Origin: a phage
Assembly (NCBI GenBank): GCA_024683775.1
Contig: GCA_024683775.1_4106.1
Strand: one strand, 5' to 3'
Length of the DNA stretch: 64,000 nt
The translations under genes and the position numbers were made by a program. Position 1 is the stretch's first letter. The number at the start of each line of letters is the position of its first letter. Below the pieces are notes generated by a model. That model did not search any database, was not told where the DNA came from, and saw only the letters and a list, made by a program, of their open reading frames with translations. This document shows, one piece after another, positions 55,343-64,000 of the stretch.

Positions 55343-55594
55343 ATGAAAGTACTGACAGAACTAGAAATGTATCATAGATTTAATAAGTACTATCATTTAC
55401 TTAAGCCTATACAGAGGATTAAATGTCCATTTGAAGAGAAACAGGTTTTAATCTATGAGCACAAGTTCTTTGTATCATTAGGTACAGATCAACAAGAGTA
55501 CTATTTGACGTTGTACTTGATTACATTAATAGATTTCATTCACTATAAAACCACACAATCTAAACAAGCTAATAAAGAGAAATATGAAAACTAA
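55343..55594 (+). CDS. LGTNYQ-family small protein, member 27
   Basis: Start chosen at ATG 55343 right after previous stop (tracked ORF starts 55310); core SLGTDQQEYY. Confidence 0.6.
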   Translation: MKVLTELEMYHRFNKYYHLLKPIQRIKCPFEEKQVLIYEHKFFVSLGTDQQEYYLTLYLITLIDFIHYKTTQSKQANKEKYEN

Positions 55595-55922
55595 TATAAA
55601 ACTCAAGGTATATAAATCATTTGCAAGTACATACATCAAATGCCATACATGTAACTCTGTAATGGACTACAAAGGTAAGCCATTTGCACTTACTTATGAT
55701 AATACAAGAGGTTTTTATATATCTTTTGCTGATTACAAATATAACATGTACGAACACATTGACATTGAAGATTTAAGTACTTTATCTGAAGAGGAATACT
55801 TTCAAGAATCATTAGTATGGGATTTGGAGTTTCCTATGCCATTAGTACATAAAATGATAGTACTAATAAAAGAAACTAAACCTGTACCTAATGGTTATGA
55901 AGAACACATTATTGAGTATTAA
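55584..55922 (+). CDS. EE-FQ family protein (112 aa); near-duplicate of 55937
   Basis: C-terminal half DLSTLSEEEYFQESLVWDLEFPMPLVHKMIVLIKETKP almost identical to the next gene; cysteines C-x2-C near N-terminus. Confidence 0.65.
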   Translation: MKTNIKLKVYKSFASTYIKCHTCNSVMDYKGKPFALTYDNTRGFYISFADYKYNMYEHIDIEDLSTLSEEEYFQESLVWDLEFPMPLVHKMIVLIKETKPVPNGYEEHIIEY

Positions 55923-55936
55923 TATATAAGGTAACT

Positions 55937-56278
55937 ATGAAAACTAATATACAACTCAATGTATACAGTTCAGAAGAACATACATATATCAAATGCAGTC
56001 TATGTAAAGATGTAATGGACTACAAAGGTAAGCCATTCACAATTACTTATGATTCTGATGTTAATGATTTATATATATCATTTCTTAATTACGAAAAGAA
56101 AATATACAAGCACGTTGATATTAAAGATTTAAGTACTTTATCAGCAGAGGAATACTTTCAAGAATCATTAGTATGGGATTTAGAATTTCCTATGCCATTA
56201 GTACATAAAATGGTAGTCCTAATGAAAGAAGCTAAACCGGAGTTTAATGGTTATGAAGAACACATCGTTGAGTACTGA
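55937..56278 (+). CDS. EE-FQ family protein (113 aa); near-duplicate of 55584
   Basis: SD AAGG; C-terminal half near-identical to the previous gene. Confidence 0.65.
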   Translation: MKTNIQLNVYSSEEHTYIKCSLCKDVMDYKGKPFTITYDSDVNDLYISFLNYEKKIYKHVDIKDLSTLSAEEYFQESLVWDLEFPMPLVHKMVVLMKEAKPEFNGYEEHIVEY

Positions 56279-56281
56279 ACA

Positions 56282-56497
56282 ATGAAAATATTATCATACG
56301 AAGATTACCGCAAGCTTCGCGGTATTTTGCGACCAGAAATTCAAAGAATTAATTCTCTTCCTATATCTAATGCAGAATGTTCAGTACTGAAAGATGAGTT
56401 AATATTAAAACACACAGTAGGAACTAACTATCAAGCTGATAGTGTTCGATATCTAATTTGGGGATTAATATGCATAGTAAAGGAAAAACAAGCTTGA
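56282..56497 (+). CDS. LGTNYQ-family small protein, member 28
   Basis: 71-aa ORF; core TVGTNYQADS. Confidence 0.6.
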   Translation: MKILSYEDYRKLRGILRPEIQRINSLPISNAECSVLKDELILKHTVGTNYQADSVRYLIWGLICIVKEKQA

Positions 56498-56553
56498 CAG
56501 TACTTTTCATTACTGATATAGTACCTGTACGTTAATCATTAGGGTAGAAAATT

Positions 56554-56799
56554 ATGTTGAATTTTTTAAATTTCCTTATCGTCTTGTGTATTGTTCTTGG
56601 GATTGCACCATTTGTATTGTATTTCATGGATTCCGATGAAATGCAAAAGATGAATTGCACAAGGACAGGACAGAGTAGAGAAGAGACGATTCTTATGCCT
56701 GTTACCGTTATTGTTAATAATATGCCCATTACAAACATGGTCCCTACCCTAACGACAACGTACCAGTACTCTTGTACAGACGGAGAGAGGTGGAGATAA
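56554..56799 (+). CDS. small membrane protein (81 aa), N-terminal TM helix
   Basis: N-term MLNFLNFLIVLCIVLGIAPFVLYF; promoter-like CTTGACA at 56505; SD AGGGTAGAAAA. Confidence 0.55.
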   Translation: MLNFLNFLIVLCIVLGIAPFVLYFMDSDEMQKMNCTRTGQSREETILMPVTVIVNNMPITNMVPTLTTTYQYSCTDGERWR

Positions 56800-57122
56800 T
56801 GCGTAAGTTCAATTGTATTGTACGTAAGAATTCATGTTACATTGTAGTAGCTGATTTTAATACAGGTTCTGGGTTGAAGATATTTGAGTACAGAAAATGC
56901 AATAATTCTTTTCATTGGAAATTGGGTGCAAGAAAAGCAAAAACAATTTCAGTACCGAATTTATGTTCTATCTCTGAAGAAGAAGAGTTTCAGTACTTGT
57001 TAGTACATGATGATTCTTTAGGATTTACATTCGAAGATATGAAGGAAGTACAAAAGCAGATGATTGCACATTGTCATCTTCCACCGAATTTTGTTCAACG
57101 CGTATGTGAATTCTACATATAA
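56799..57122 (+). CDS. EE-FQ family protein (107 aa)
   Basis: Start chosen at ATG 56799 overlapping the upstream TAA, SD GGAGAGAGGTGGAG; motif EEEEFQYLLVHDDSLGF. Confidence 0.6.
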   Translation: MRKFNCIVRKNSCYIVVADFNTGSGLKIFEYRKCNNSFHWKLGARKAKTISVPNLCSISEEEEFQYLLVHDDSLGFTFEDMKEVQKQMIAHCHLPPNFVQRVCEFYI

Positions 57123-61791: not shown

Positions 61792-62396
61792 ACATAGACC
61801 AATTAATGAAGTACAGTACAAGTGCAATCACAGTGCTAAGTAAAGCATTAGATTCATTCAATGCTAAGTACCCTGAAGGTTCAGAGTTAAATATTCCTTT
61901 TACCACAGAGGGGATTGTTGATACGTACATTGTAAACATCAGTAGTACAGGTATTGTTTTGAAGCAAAAGTACGGCGAAAGTGAATATTATGGATTGAAG
62001 CTGGATAATATTTCAGGAGAGAAGACACCTTATGAGTTTTGGGTTCCGAATAACATTGAGTCATGGAAAACAAATATTAATAAGAGAGACGAAAGAAATT
62101 TACCTCTTGTACAAAATAATGAAAAAAGAATTGATGTATTTTATTATTACAGTACAGCCCAGTTTCCAGAAGAGATTTATTTAAATTCAGAGGTGCATGA
62201 AGATATTGAATCATTTTTCTTTCAGTTATCATTGGTACAGGATATCATGCCTGTGCAAATGTTCAGGGATGAAATAAATTTAGCGAAAGAGATTTCGGAT
62301 ATGTTACCTGAATTTAGTGTTCTTTATGGTAGTAGAGCTTTACCTGAAAATGTTTACAAAGAATTTATTTCCATTGTTAAAGGGTTGAATATATAA
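61788..62396 (+). CDS. EE-FQ family protein (202 aa)
   Basis: ATGA overlap; motif ESFFFQLSLVQDIMPV. Confidence 0.6.
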   Translation: MNIDQLMKYSTSAITVLSKALDSFNAKYPEGSELNIPFTTEGIVDTYIVNISSTGIVLKQKYGESEYYGLKLDNISGEKTPYEFWVPNNIESWKTNINKRDERNLPLVQNNEKRIDVFYYYSTAQFPEEIYLNSEVHEDIESFFFQLSLVQDIMPVQMFRDEINLAKEISDMLPEFSVLYGSRALPENVYKEFISIVKGLNI

Positions 62397-62397
62397 T

Positions 62398-62592
62398 ATG
62401 ACCGCCTATGATATCAAACAAAGGCATACGAAGTTTGATTTGTTCACATACCAATTCCACAATGATATAGTGAATTTTAACATCAATGCGTCATTGCATC
62501 CTACATCACAAGATGATTTTGACAACAGAGTGCTTAACATCGTGGTGCTTTTGTGTTATAATCATTTCAGTGAATATTTTAACACAAGATAA
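62398..62592 (+). CDS. small hypothetical protein (64 aa)
   Basis: ORF 1 nt after previous stop. Confidence 0.45.
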   Translation: MTAYDIKQRHTKFDLFTYQFHNDIVNFNINASLHPTSQDDFDNRVLNIVVLLCYNHFSEYFNTR

Positions 62593-62605
62593 GGTTGAGG
62601 CACAC

Positions 62606-63124
62606 ATGTATCAGGCCAAGTACAATACATCATATGCATTTGCACACAACATTTTGAAGATCATCAAAGCGTTAGAGGGTGGATTGCTTAGTCATAAGTA
62701 CACCAAAGTAGGTGACAATTGGTTCAGAAATGATGATGAGTTCAGAAGTCATAAGATTGTTTACAGCAATAATTACAGTGCTAATTACCTTCAGGATGTT
62801 GCTATGTGCTTCGAATACGTGTTACAGTTCAGGGGTTCCATCAGTCCTGAGCTAAGAGAACACATGTACATTCGATACCTACCAATGCTTAAGGATGAGA
62901 AAACAATATTCAATTCAGTACACCACAGAGTACGAGAGAGAACATTCAGGGATATTTTAGAAGATGAAGCTGCATATTTCCAGCAATCATTGATTGATGC
63001 TCCTGATGTGTTACAGATGCAGAATTTGTATAATGTATTAGATGCGAACATCGATACGGATATCTTTTTTTCCTTAAGTGATTATGAAACATTTTTGGAA
63101 GATTTAAAGGAAATAGGATTATGA
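62606..63124 (+). CDS. EE-FQ family protein (172 aa)
   Basis: Start chosen at ATG 62606 with SD AAGGTTGAGG; motif EAAYFQQSLIDAPDVL. Confidence 0.6.
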   Translation: MYQAKYNTSYAFAHNILKIIKALEGGLLSHKYTKVGDNWFRNDDEFRSHKIVYSNNYSANYLQDVAMCFEYVLQFRGSISPELREHMYIRYLPMLKDEKTIFNSVHHRVRERTFRDILEDEAAYFQQSLIDAPDVLQMQNLYNVLDANIDTDIFFSLSDYETFLEDLKEIGL

Positions 63125-63465
63125 GTAGATTTTCAGTTTATATAGTAAACGTCAGTAAAGATGGTAGTTTAATTGAATTTGATGTAGTTGATGACAATGA
63201 TAATTCATATGGTATTAAGGTACAGGACAATGATGTACAGTTCAGTACAAGGACAAATTTTGAGAATCCAGTCCAAGTTCCGAATTTCATAGAAGATGAA
63301 GCTGCACGATTCCAATACGAAACGGCCTTTGATAATTTAGCGATGCATATTATTATGCAACAAAGTTTAGTTCAATTGCTTCAGGTATTCAGACAAAATA
63401 TATATGTACATGAAGTGTCGATTAATGGCATTCAAAGTTCCGTTTTGTTCGGTACAAATATGTAA
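63121..63465 (+). CDS. EE-FQ family protein (114 aa)
   Basis: ATGA overlap; motif EAARFQYETAFDNLAM. Confidence 0.55.
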   Translation: MSRFSVYIVNVSKDGSLIEFDVVDDNDNSYGIKVQDNDVQFSTRTNFENPVQVPNFIEDEAARFQYETAFDNLAMHIIMQQSLVQLLQVFRQNIYVHEVSINGIQSSVLFGTNM

Positions 63466-63475
63466 GGAAAGTACA

Positions 63476-64000
63476 ATGAGTTCAATGAGTTTATTAGATA
63501 CATTAGAAAAAGACAGAAGTGCCATTAAGAGATTAAAAAATCTTGTCCAGAGCATTGCGAACAACGCTGAGAAGTTCAGTGACAATCTTAGTATAGGTGA
63601 TATAACCAGTACAGGAATAAAATCCCTGAAGTCAGATTTATTAATTCATAAGGAAGATAAATTATTATTTGTATTGAGTTCAGATTTAATGGTTGCAAGT
63701 AATGGTTTCAATTCGATATCAACACAAGATGGTAGCACAGGATTATATCTATCACAGGGTGTCCAGACGAACGAACAAAAGTGTTTTAGTTCAGGAGTAC
63801 AGAATCCCTTTAAGTTCAGTACAGAACAAGCCACAGAGCTTTTAGAGGCTTCAGAAGAGATGTTATTTCAGTACAAAACGGTTCATACAGATTTTGAATT
63901 ACGATGCATGTACGCTGTTAAGCATTATGTTCAGGAGTTCGAGAATTTAAGTTATCTTTTAGTTCGAACGAATACAAAGAACATTGGTGCATTAGAAGAT
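63476..64000 (+). CDS. EE-FQ family protein, 3' end beyond window
   Basis: ATG 63476 with SD AAGGAAAG; open to window end; motif EEMLFQYKTVHTDFEL. Confidence 0.55.
   Translation, partial: MSSMSLLDTLEKDRSAIKRLKNLVQSIANNAEKFSDNLSIGDITSTGIKSLKSDLLIHKEDKLLFVLSSDLMVASNGFNSISTQDGSTGLYLSQGVQTNEQKCFSSGVQNPFKFSTEQATELLEASEEMLFQYKTVHTDFELRCMYAVKHYVQEFENLSYLLVRTNTKNIGALED

What the first reader, a model, noticed from the sequence alone, without database searches (positions are those of the whole stretch)
55584..64000. Second expanded family with an acidic-aromatic E-E-x-[FYW]-F-Q-x-S-L-V-x-D motif (at least 16 members)
Genes at 55584, 55937, 56799, 57132, 58590, 59140, 59457, 59770, 60646, 61216, 61788, 62606, 63121 and 63476, plus outliers at 2164 and 25575, encode 100-215-aa proteins whose only shared feature is a motif such as LSEEEYFQESLVWDLEFPMP, EEELFQYSLIYDIDICTMP or EEWWFQQNLVHDDIDLFFY, positioned in the C-terminal third. 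N-terminal regions differ widely. 55584/55937 and 59140/59457 are recent duplicates. A short conserved peptide attached to diverse bodies resembles a shared docking or targeting motif (for a common partner, secretion or packaging route, or protease site), not a shared fold.
Basis: partly seen in the sequence, partly recalled or inferred. Interest (0 to 1): 0.7.

Follow-up and report, generated by a model that had tools for sequence, protein, structure and literature searches.

The report
Jumbo-phage multigene family sharing one helix
The motif marks a real, much larger family of 40 or more small acidic, non-virion proteins encoded in a tandem array in RaK2-like jumbo phages; the shared peptide is a folded, capped helix in the protein core region rather than a loose docking tag, and its function is unknown.

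Summary
All 16 ORFs exist and carry S-E-E-E-[YLF]-F-Q-x-S-[LT]-[VI]-x-D. The pattern E[EDA]xxFQ occurs 12 times, against 0.27 expected by shuffling, and never in the other five frames. One ORF (63121) is borderline.

The window is from an Asteriusvirus-type E. coli jumbo phage and cuts the array. In Ecwhy_1 the array continues about 20 kb further, giving at least 42 members per genome. Syntenic arrays with the same motif exist in Salmonella phage Munch and Klebsiella phage RaK2.

The conservation is at protein level, because synonymous sites vary. Orthologues are under purifying selection (median dN/dS 0.26).

There are two body plans. The short one is an all-beta N-terminus. The long one adds an N-terminal helix. 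Homology spans the full length within each plan, but only the 14 motif columns align between plans.

AlphaFold places the motif in a confident helix that opens a C-terminal helix-helix-strand unit behind a five-stranded sheet, in both plans.

Best reading: an old, diversified family of early cytoplasmic host-interaction proteins. The function is inferred, not shown.

The parts
2164..2814 (+). Outlying family member, 216 aa, with a basic N-terminal extension. Motif PEEQLFQYSLIHD at 2674-2712.
   Evidence: ORF and motif. Leave-one-out motif HMM E 8e-6. pI 7.0. It lies among the minus-strand RCC1-like genes.
25575..26234 (+). Outlying family member, 219 aa, with a basic N-terminus. Motif SEEEEFMYSTVID (Met in place of Gln) at 26085-26123.
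   Evidence: Leave-one-out E 4e-5. pI 9.3. Embedded in a run of 60-70-aa + strand ORFs.
55584..55922 (+). Short-type member, 112 aa. Motif SEEEYFQESLVWD at 55785-55823.
   Evidence: AlphaFold model pLDDT 84, pTM 0.77: five strands, helix 69-79 (motif), helix 85-97, strand 105-111.
55937..56278 (+). Short-type member, 113 aa, 70% identical duplicate of 55584. Motif SAEEYFQESLVWD at 56141-56179.
56799..57122 (+). Short-type member, 107 aa. Motif SEEEEFQYLLVHD at 56973-57011.
   Evidence: BLASTP to 57132 over residues 3-71, E 3e-7. Leave-one-out E 0.12. phrog_13866.
57132..57443 (+). Short-type member, 103 aa. Motif QEEELFQYSLIYD at 57294-57332.
   Evidence: phrog_13866 E 3e-38, plus cross-hits to four other PHROGs.
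58590..59150 (+). Long-type member, 186 aa. Motif NEAEVFQTSLIYN at 58971-59009.
   Evidence: AlphaFold model pLDDT 71, pTM 0.70: helix 3-20, strands, helix 129-136 (motif), helix 141-154, strand 164-166, helix 168-185. phrog_19795.
59140..59451 (+). Short-type member, 103 aa. Motif SEEEFFQMQLVVD at 59302-59340.
   Evidence: hhalign to the 55584 cluster: 89 columns, E 1e-8.
59457..59798 (+). Short-type member, 113 aa, 54% identical duplicate of 59140. Motif SEEEFFQMQCVLD at 59637-59675.
   Evidence: The start is uncertain: GTG 59448 or ATG 59457, and the Ecwhy_1 annotation starts 15 nt later.
59770..60339 (+). Long-type member, 189 aa. Motif SEEAFFQESLFTH at 60151-60189.
   Evidence: Paralogue of 58590 (31% identity over 92 aa). 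phrog_19795.
60646..61143 (+). Long-type member, 165 aa. Motif TEEWWFQQNLVHD at 60970-61008.
   Evidence: hhalign to long cluster c1: 105 columns, E 3e-7.
61131..61152 (+). Terminator-like hairpin with a T run, directly after gene 60646.
   Evidence: A terminator is annotated at the equivalent place in phage UE-S1.
61216..61791 (+). Long-type member, 191 aa from this start. Motif SAEEYFQYSTLHS at 61531-61569.
   Evidence: A sigma-70-like site at 61162-61190 (11 of 12 matches, with TG) favours this start over ATG 61147.
61788..62396 (+). Long-type member, 202 aa. Motif IESFFFQLSLVQD at 62205-62243.
   Evidence: Leave-one-out E 0.03. phrog_31297.
62606..63124 (+). Long-type member, 172 aa from this start. 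Motif DEAAYFQQSLIDA at 62963-63001.
   Evidence: hhalign to long cluster c1: 130 columns, E 6e-10. A sigma-70-like site at 62534-62562 lies upstream.
63121..63465 (+). Borderline short-type member, 114 aa. Degenerate motif DEAARFQYETAFD at 63295-63333.
   Evidence: Not recovered by the leave-one-out HMM (E 9.3). A singleton in the hhalign network. Its position in the array and the position of the motif fit the family.
63476..64000 (+). Long-type member, cut by the window end (175 aa visible). Motif SEEMLFQYKTVHT at 63851-63889.
   Evidence: The Ecwhy_1 orthologue continues about 9 codons further.

Best explanation
The 16 ORFs are the first part of a large, old, lineage-specific multigene family. 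It has at least 42 paralogues per genome and occupies about 28 kb, or 8%, of the genome. The proteins are small, mostly acidic and absent from the virion. They are encoded in one co-oriented, tightly packed array in RaK2-like jumbo phages (Asteriusvirus, the Munch group and Alcyoneusvirus).

Each protein is a folded alpha/beta domain. An antiparallel sheet of about five strands is followed by helix aA, helix aB and a final strand. Long members add an N-terminal helix and a C-terminal helix.

The motif is helix aA together with the turn into aB. I infer the following roles. Ser(-5) and Asp/Asn(+7) act as helix N-caps. The Glu run stabilises the N-terminus of the helix. The invariant Phe, with Leu/Thr(+4) and Val/Ile(+5), anchors the helical pair on the sheet. 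The nearly invariant Gln is left as a candidate functional residue.

So the motif is the conserved keystone of the domain, while the sheet and the N-terminal parts have diverged beyond recognition.

Inferred function: proteins made early by host RNA polymerase that each bind a different host or defence target (host takeover or counter-defence).

Shown here: the family, its extent, protein-level selection, the predicted helical and folded context, and absence from the one virion proteome checked (phAPEC6). Inferred: the capping roles, the timing of expression and the function.
For: Extent and age:
- The array continues to Ecwhy_1 locus L001 48213, and 40 of 56 ORFs of at least 80 aa there carry the motif.
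- Syntenic arrays lie upstream of the same dam methylase and RNA ligase genes in Munch (about 22 of 28 genes carry the motif) and in RaK2 ORF412-439 (about 25 of 28).

Selection acts on the protein:
- Phe is TTT in 9 genes and TTC in 7. Gln is CAA in 5 and CAG in 10. Ser uses both TCN and AGY codons.
- Median dN/dS between Ecwhy_1 and 121Q is 0.26 over 60 array pairs.
- Within orthogroups the motif is 75% identical, against 58% for the N-terminal part and 63% for the C-terminal part.

Folded context:
- AlphaFold helices at 69-79 (short model) and 129-136 (long model) cover the motif, with high local pLDDT.
- Both models have the same order of elements: sheet, aA, aB, strand.
- BFVD models of other paralogues with 12-26% identity match at TM 0.45-0.72.

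Homology beyond the motif within each body plan: 89-149 aligned columns at E 1e-8 to 1e-15. At P<1e-3, 34 of 47 clusters form one network.

Other properties:
- Not in the phAPEC6 virion proteome. RaK2 virion proteins, detected or predicted, map to two other genome clusters according to the paper's text; I did not check its protein list.
- Acidic, with median pI 4.7.
- The four best sigma-70-like sites (11 of 12 matches) all lie 26-70 nt upstream of + strand gene starts.
Against: - Deep short-type and long-type profiles align only over the 14 motif columns, and their flanks show no similarity.
- Neither BFVD search put an entry of the other size class above E 0.1, except one 124-aa RaK2 protein hit by the long model. 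One fold for all members is therefore not demonstrated.
- The long model is only moderately confident. The best of five models has pLDDT 71 and the others 34-56.
- Conserved polar residues (Glu, Glu, Gln, Ser, Asp) could equally form a binding surface.
- No direct data on expression or function exist. The total number of promoter-like sites is not above the shuffled expectation (68 against 61.7, sd 9.2).
- Mean dN/dS gives no sign of an arms race.
Confidence: 0.55

Rival explanations
1. Hub-docking helix. The proteins are folded, but the conserved face of helix aA (Glu, Glu, Phe, Gln, Ser, Asp) is a surface that every paralogue uses to bind one common partner, a host or phage machine. The variable bodies bring in different cargoes. 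The family would then be an adaptor library.
For: - Gln is kept in 40 of 42 paralogues and several polar residues are conserved, more than a purely structural helix needs.
- The motif is the most conserved part within orthogroups as well.
- It is the only sequence shared by the two body plans.
- The phage encodes ClpP-like proteases that could serve as a hub.
Against: - No partner has been identified.
- Ser(-5) and Asp/Asn(+7) sit where helix N-caps are expected, and the hydrophobic positions are spread around the helix, which suggests burial (inference).
- Burial could not be measured.
Confidence: 0.2
2. A portable linear docking, targeting or packaging peptide is attached to unrelated bodies.
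For: - Pairwise, only the motif is shared.
- One database protein (P0027) has the N-terminal part of one paralogue joined at the motif to the C-terminal part of another.
Against: - The motif lies at a fixed distance from the C-terminus.
- It is predicted helical with high confidence, not disordered.
- Homology spans the full length within each body plan.
- No family member is in the virion proteome.
- P0027 comes from a single 662-bp metagenome contig and may be an assembly chimera.
Confidence: 0.08
3. Oligomerisation module. The conserved helical pair lets paralogues assemble with one another into homo- or hetero-oligomers, as in the doughnut-shaped trimers of acidic p32/MAM33 proteins.
For: - Long members have an N-terminal helix, a sheet and C-terminal helices, and they are acidic, like p32 (the p32 architecture is from my own knowledge).
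Against: - No multimer prediction was possible.
Confidence: 0.08
4. Protease processing site resembling the TEV NIa site E-x-x-Y-x-Q|(S/G).
For: Glu at P6 (34 of 42), Tyr, Leu or Phe at P3, Phe at P2 and Gln at P1 (40 of 42) recall ENLYFQ|S (the TEV consensus is from my own knowledge).
Against: - P1' is variable (Tyr, Glu, Gln, Asn, Leu, Met) and the conserved Ser is at P2'.
- The site lies in a confident helix.
- Of the three Ecwhy_1 genes annotated as protease or protease-like, two are ClpP-like (one weakly) and one has no Pfam match. None is a 3C/NIa type.
Confidence: 0.03
5. Conservation at the DNA or RNA level: a repeated regulatory or recombination element that happens to be translated.
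For: The element recurs once per gene, in register.
Against: Synonymous positions vary freely, and Ser is encoded by both codon families. There are no matches in other frames or on the other strand.
Confidence: 0.01

Closest known systems
PHROG families phrog_13866, 19795, 33987, 34516, 30978, 31297 and 28680 (all 'unknown function')
   Same: The window genes are members. E-values range from 1e-34 to 1e-107, and weak cross-hits link the families.
   Different: PHROGs splits the family into many unlinked groups. None has a function, and the unifying motif and the array are not recorded there.
Lineage-specific multigene expansions in large viruses. [quoted passage not shown]
   Same: Tandem, co-oriented arrays of strongly diverged small paralogues of unknown role in a jumbo phage.
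   Different: This particular family, its motif and its conservation across three genera are not described in the papers searched.
TEV NIa protease recognition site ENLYFQ|S (my own knowledge)
   Same: The Glu...[Tyr/Phe]-Phe-Gln core is similar.
   Different: P1' is not Gly or Ser, the context is helical, and no cognate protease was found.
Sheet-plus-helix platforms in the PDB: RNA polymerase beta lobe, polo-box, p32/MAM33
Capsid-targeting sequences of phage T4 internal proteins (my own knowledge)
   Same: A short shared peptide on otherwise diverse small phage proteins.
   Different: The T4 signal is N-terminal, is cleaved off, and delivers the protein into the capsid. Here the motif is internal and helical, and the proteins are absent from the phAPEC6 virion.
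Bacterial beta-clamp-binding motif QL[SD]LF (my own knowledge)
   Same: Gln-x-Ser-[Leu/Thr]-[Val/Ile] loosely resembles it.
   Different: Position 2 is variable, the last position is Val or Ile rather than Phe or Leu, and the segment is not in a flexible tail. This is a lead only and was not tested.

Membership tests
One paralogous family (common descent of all motif-bearing genes) | Significant sequence similarity beyond the motif | tested here: inconclusive
   Met within the long type (105-149 columns, E down to 1e-15) and within the short type (89-92 columns). Not met between the two types: only the 14 motif columns align, and the flanks give P 0.1-0.8.
One paralogous family (common descent of all motif-bearing genes) | Same order of secondary-structure elements around the motif | tested here: met
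   Both AlphaFold models show about five strands, helix aA (motif), helix aB and a strand. The models could not be superposed.
One paralogous family (common descent of all motif-bearing genes) | Tandem, co-oriented, syntenic arrangement | tested here: met
   A single + strand array in Asteriusvirus, Munch and RaK2, upstream of dam methylase and RNA ligase.
Short linear docking or targeting motif | Lies in a disordered, accessible segment | tested here: not met
   Predicted as a helix, with block pLDDT 87-91 (short model) and 80-83 (long model).
Short linear docking or targeting motif | Position independent of the domain architecture | tested here: not met
   The Phe lies 40-81 aa from the C-terminus counting the Phe itself (SD 8), against 59-175 aa from the N-terminus (SD 33).
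Virion packaging signal or internal protein | Protein present in purified virions | tested here: not met
   The phAPEC6 virion proteome (62 proteins) lists nothing between gp347 and gp549. The array is gp402c-gp466c.
TEV/NIa-type cleavage site | Gly or Ser at P1' after Gln | tested here: not met
   P1' is Tyr, Glu, Gln, Asn, Leu or Met. Ser is at P2'.
TEV/NIa-type cleavage site | A cognate 3C/NIa-like protease encoded by the phage | tested here: inconclusive
   Of three Ecwhy_1 genes annotated as protease or protease-like, two match Clp protease (one weakly) and one has no Pfam match. The whole genome was not screened.
p32/MAM33-like fold | Structural superposition with a significant score | tested here: inconclusive
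Pfam, NCBIfam or PDB-represented families | Profile match above threshold | tested here: not met
   No match for the 16 window members or for 18 metagenomic relatives.
DUF2283 (the name one source gives to hit P0017) | Match to the Pfam model | tested here: not met
   No DUF2283 hit at E up to 1 for 55584 or its relatives. P0017 is on a 1,057-bp contig in an Actinomadura assembly. I take that contig to be phage contamination (inference).

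The most novel reading that the evidence does not exclude
The family is a phage-encoded adaptor library. All paralogues dock through the conserved Glu-Glu-x-x-Phe-Gln-x-Ser helix onto one hub, for example the phage's own ClpP-like proteases or a host machine such as the sliding clamp or RNA polymerase. Their hyper-diverged sheets each capture a different host or defence protein. This would be analogous to the F-box, BTB or SOCS-box substrate-receptor families of eukaryotes and poxviruses.
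Probability: 0.1. Interest if true: 0.85.

Novelty: new member of a known kind. Interest (0 to 1): 0.55.

Why it matters
About 8% of a 350-kb phage genome, at least 40 genes, is devoted to one undescribed protein family. The family has been kept for a long time across phages of E. coli, Salmonella and Klebsiella, and each paralogue is under purifying selection. It has no relative in Pfam or NCBIfam, and no convincing one in the PDB.

Recognising the shared helix joins dozens of separate 'hypothetical protein' groups into one family. It also offers a clear handle for experiments: point mutants of the invariant Phe and Gln, pull-downs, and deletion of the array. These phages are being developed for therapy, so it is practically useful to know what their largest gene family does to the host.

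The arrangement itself, a tandem array of diverged paralogues in a jumbo phage, is a familiar pattern, and no function has been established.

Tried and rejected
- **Composition or chance.** Rejected by shuffling and by the absence of matches in other frames.
- **A DNA-level element.** Rejected because synonymous positions vary.
- **Family libraries.** Pfam, NCBIfam and PDB sequence searches gave only noise. PHROGs gave only 'unknown function' families.
- **DUF2283.** The name attached to P0017 is not supported.
- **Database searches.**
  - A 5.8-billion-protein search with the full alignment returned only orthologues.
  - A profile search of 1.84 billion representatives found just 40 clusters. 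About 18 were new short-type proteins from unnamed metagenome contigs.
  - An IMG/VR scan returned only phage 121Q itself.
- **Single-protein tblastn.** It does not reach beyond each genus. RaK2 was reached only by fetching the syntenic region.
- **Fold searches.**
  - The tools gave no way to superpose the two models.
- **A TEV-like protease.** Not found among the annotated proteases.
- **Literature.** Papers on Asteriusvirus, RaK2, phAPEC6, UE-S1, fEgEco12 and Sharanji, and the jumbo-phage comparative survey, do not describe the family.
- **Array genes without the motif.** They gave no Pfam clue.
- **Positive selection.** Not seen at the whole-gene level.

Full report
**Source of the window.** The region is 95-98% identical to Escherichia phages Ecwhy_1, EC.P1, WPEC5 and CMSTMSU, and about 81% identical to phage 121Q. 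These are jumbo phages of 350-386 kb in the genus Asteriusvirus. All genes under the match are annotated as hypothetical.

**Checking the observation.** Every start coordinate in the finding opens an ORF of 103-219 aa that carries the motif. 63476 is cut by the window end.
- The pattern E[EDA]xxFQ occurs 12 times in the six-frame translation, only in + strand genes. Residue shuffles give a mean of 0.27 and a maximum of 2 in 200 trials.
- An iterated motif HMM at E<0.01 finds exactly the 16 listed ORFs in the window.
- When each gene's own cluster is left out of the model, 13 of the 16 are still recovered at E<0.02. 61788 scores 0.03 and 56799 scores 0.12. 63121 scores 9.3 and is only a borderline member.
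- Across 42 paralogues, counted as one genome's complement, Phe is present in 42, Gln in 40, Ser(+3) in 33, Glu(-4) in 34, Glu(-3) in 29, Leu/Thr(+4) in 39, Val/Ile(+5) in 35 and Asp/Asn(+7) in 26.
- The Phe lies 40-81 aa from the C-terminus (SD 8), but 59-175 aa from the N-terminus (SD 33).

**The family is much larger than reported.** The window ends inside the array. In Ecwhy_1 the array runs on for about 20 kb (locus L001 20002-48213, equivalent to 121Q genes 342-408).
- Of 56 ORFs of at least 80 aa there, 40 carry the motif. The next 49 kb has none.
- Genes are co-oriented and often overlap at start and stop codons.
- A 60-90-aa family with an L-G-T-x-x-Q-E signature and a few unrelated genes are interspersed.

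**The family is old.**
- Salmonella phage Munch belongs to a different, unclassified group. It has a syntenic array (CPT_Munch_054-081) in which about 22 of 28 genes carry EE..FQxS[LT] at 36-73 aa from the C-terminus.
- Klebsiella phage RaK2 (Alcyoneusvirus) has another array at ORF412-439, about 25 of 28 genes, plus ORFs 378, 384, 385, 397 and a weak match in 398. It lies upstream of the same dam methylase, cytidyltransferase, RNA ligase and PseT genes.
- A profile search of 1.84 billion representative proteins found only 40 clusters. About 18 were new short-type proteins from unnamed metagenome contigs. The family is therefore narrow in sequence space and has no detectable cellular relatives.

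**Selection acts on the protein.**
- Codons at the conserved positions vary freely. Phe is TTT 9 times and TTC 7 times, Gln is CAA 5 times and CAG 10 times, and Ser uses both TCN and AGY codons. A DNA or RNA element is excluded.
- Between Ecwhy_1 and 121Q, 60 array gene pairs have a median amino-acid identity of 78% and a median dN/dS of 0.26. The 35 downstream genes have a median dN/dS of 0.16. Each paralogue is therefore individually maintained.
- Within 21 orthogroups the motif is the most conserved part (75% identity). The N-terminal body is the least conserved (58%), and the C-terminal part is at 63%.

**Is the motif the only shared feature?**
- At pairwise level, yes. With the motif plus or minus 8 aa removed, phmmer links only orthologues and recent duplicates.
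- With profiles, two body plans appear.
  - Long members (58590, 59770, 60646, 61216, 61788, 62606, 63476 and most of the array beyond the window) align with one another over nearly their whole length. The cluster of 62606 aligns with cluster c1 over 130 columns at E 6e-10. 60646 aligns over 105 columns. The cluster of 61216 aligns with a sister cluster over 149 columns.
  - Short members (55584, 55937, 56799, 57132, 59140, 59457) align with one another over 89-92 columns.
  - Long members also share an N-terminal amphipathic helix signature, a central Asn-Pro segment and C-terminal Tyr..Leu positions.
- Merged profiles of 76 short-type sequences and of a larger pooled set of long-type sequences (Neff about 7 each) align only over the 14 motif columns (probability 94%, E 1e-7). 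Their N- and C-terminal flanks alone show nothing (P 0.1-0.8).

**Structure predictions.**
- The short member 55584 folds confidently (pLDDT 84, pTM 0.77). It has strands at 2-11, 16-22, 33-39, 43-50 and 55-60, helix 69-79 (the motif), helix 85-97 and strand 105-111.
- The long member 58590 is moderately confident (pLDDT 71, pTM 0.70; the other four models score 34-56). It has helix 3-20, strands at 29-34, 37-43 and 65-71, a low-confidence segment at 76-97, further strands at 97-99 and 106-110, helix 129-136 (the motif), helix 141-154, strand 164-166 and helix 168-185.
- Both models therefore show about five strands, then aA (motif), aB and a strand. The long form adds a helix at each end.
- The motif region is among the most confident parts of both models.
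- In both models Ser(-5) directly precedes helix aA. In the long model Asn(+7) directly precedes aB. I infer that these residues and the Glu run are classical helix-capping and dipole-stabilising residues, and that Phe, Leu and Val/Ile form the hydrophobic anchor.
- Independent BFVD models of other short paralogues (15-26% identity) match at TM 0.53-0.72. Models of other long paralogues (12-16% identity) match at TM 0.45-0.63. RaK2, GAP32 and Yersinia phage proteins also appear in the lists.
- Neither BFVD search put a model of the other size class above E 0.1, apart from one 124-aa RaK2 protein hit by the long model, and I could not superpose the two models. One fold for both body plans is plausible but unproven.

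**What the family resembles.**
- Pfam, NCBIfam and PDB sequence searches find nothing.
- PHROGs places the genes in at least seven separate families of unknown function.

**Where and when the proteins act.**
- The published phAPEC6 virion proteome (62 proteins, PMC7247149) lists no protein between gp347 and gp549. The array is gp402c-gp466c.
- In RaK2, virion proteins (detected or predicted) map to two other genome clusters according to the paper's text; I did not check its protein list.
- The proteins are acidic, with median pI 4.7. By eye I saw no signal-peptide-like N-terminus in the translations; no predictor was run.
- The four best sigma-70-like sites (11 of 12 matches) start at 56494, 59671, 61162 and 62534. 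All lie 26-70 nt upstream of + strand gene starts.
- A terminator-like hairpin at 61131-61152 coincides with a terminator annotated in phage UE-S1. This fits early transcription by host polymerase, but the total count of promoter-like sites is not above the shuffled expectation.

**Interpretation.** The best-supported reading is an ancient, strongly diversified multigene family of folded cytoplasmic proteins. Its conserved peptide is the keystone helix and turn of a C-terminal helical pair. The motif is nevertheless not a loose docking, secretion or packaging tag.

I infer a role in host takeover or counter-defence, with each paralogue binding a different target. This rests on four points:
- the location in the early region;
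- absence from virions;
- acidity;
- individual conservation of each paralogue.

The nearly invariant Gln and the conserved polar face leave room for a shared partner or an oligomer interface.

A TEV-like cleavage site is unlikely. P1' is variable, the context is helical, and the two annotated proteases that match any Pfam model are ClpP-like.

**Novelty.** The papers I could search note paralogy in these phages only in general terms. None describes this family. It is a new member of a known kind: a lineage-specific multigene family in a jumbo phage.

Noticed in passing
window 962-23470, minus strand: About 20 tandem paralogues of 358-449 aa. The three that gave Pfam hits match RCC1-like beta-propeller repeats (Pfam RCC1 / WD40_RLD). 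By size (about 41 kDa), position at the record ends and the 'DNA condensation protein' label, I take phAPEC6 gp003-gp010 and gp549 to be their counterparts; those were detected in the virion. Orthology was not tested by alignment.
   Followed up: partly
window 54908-55594, 56282-56497, 57430-57880 (and further upstream): A second expanded family of 68-94-aa proteins with an L-G-T-x-x-Q-E signature is interspersed with the motif family. It recurs inside the array in Ecwhy_1 and 121Q.
   Followed up: no
window 23575-28372, + strand: A dense run of more than 20 head-to-tail ORFs of 59-81 aa starts at the strand switch. GC skew changes sign near 28 kb. The outlier 25575 lies inside this run. No tRNA genes were found anywhere in the window.
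   Followed up: no
window 61131-61190 and 62534-62562: A terminator-like hairpin is followed by a sigma-70-like promoter with an extended -10 element. A second such promoter lies further on. These suggest that genes 61216 and 62606 start at internal ATG codons rather than at the longest-ORF starts (61147 and 62486) used in the Ecwhy_1 annotation for the first of them.
   Followed up: partly
window 56554-56799, + strand: An 81-aa ORF with a strongly hydrophobic N-terminus (MLNFLNFLIVLCIVLGIAPFVLYF...) may be a small membrane protein. It is conserved in all five Asteriusvirus genomes compared.
   Followed up: no
window 2164-2814 and 25575-26234: The two outliers share a Lys/Arg-rich N-terminal extension (pI 7.0 and 9.3, against a family median of 4.7) and similar first 30 residues. 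They form a separate, basic sub-type located outside the array.
   Followed up: partly
L005 9064-9600 (phage A4 gene A4_348): The A4 orthologue of window gene 62606 is annotated 'DNA ligase'. It clusters with the motif family and has no ligase domain match, so the label looks wrong.
   Followed up: partly
protein P0027 (ENA contig of 662 bp), compared with L001 20535-20897 and window 55937-56278: This protein has the N-terminal part of the Ecwhy1_426 type joined exactly at the motif to a C-terminal part nearly identical to that of 55937. It is either a natural recombinant between paralogues or an assembly chimera at the repeated motif.
   Followed up: partly
L001 45967-46380, L008 31575-31979, L009 33678-34088: A 134-137-aa gene without the motif (M.LYH.STVKID.FY.P.GGLH.GG...) sits at the same relative place inside the array in Asteriusvirus, Munch and RaK2. 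It has no Pfam match.
   Followed up: partly
L002 19197-24375 (Ecwhy_1): The phage carries a clear ClpP-like protease gene (Pfam CLP_protease, E 1e-41) and a second, weak ClpP-like ORF that is marked as a possible pseudogene.
   Followed up: partly
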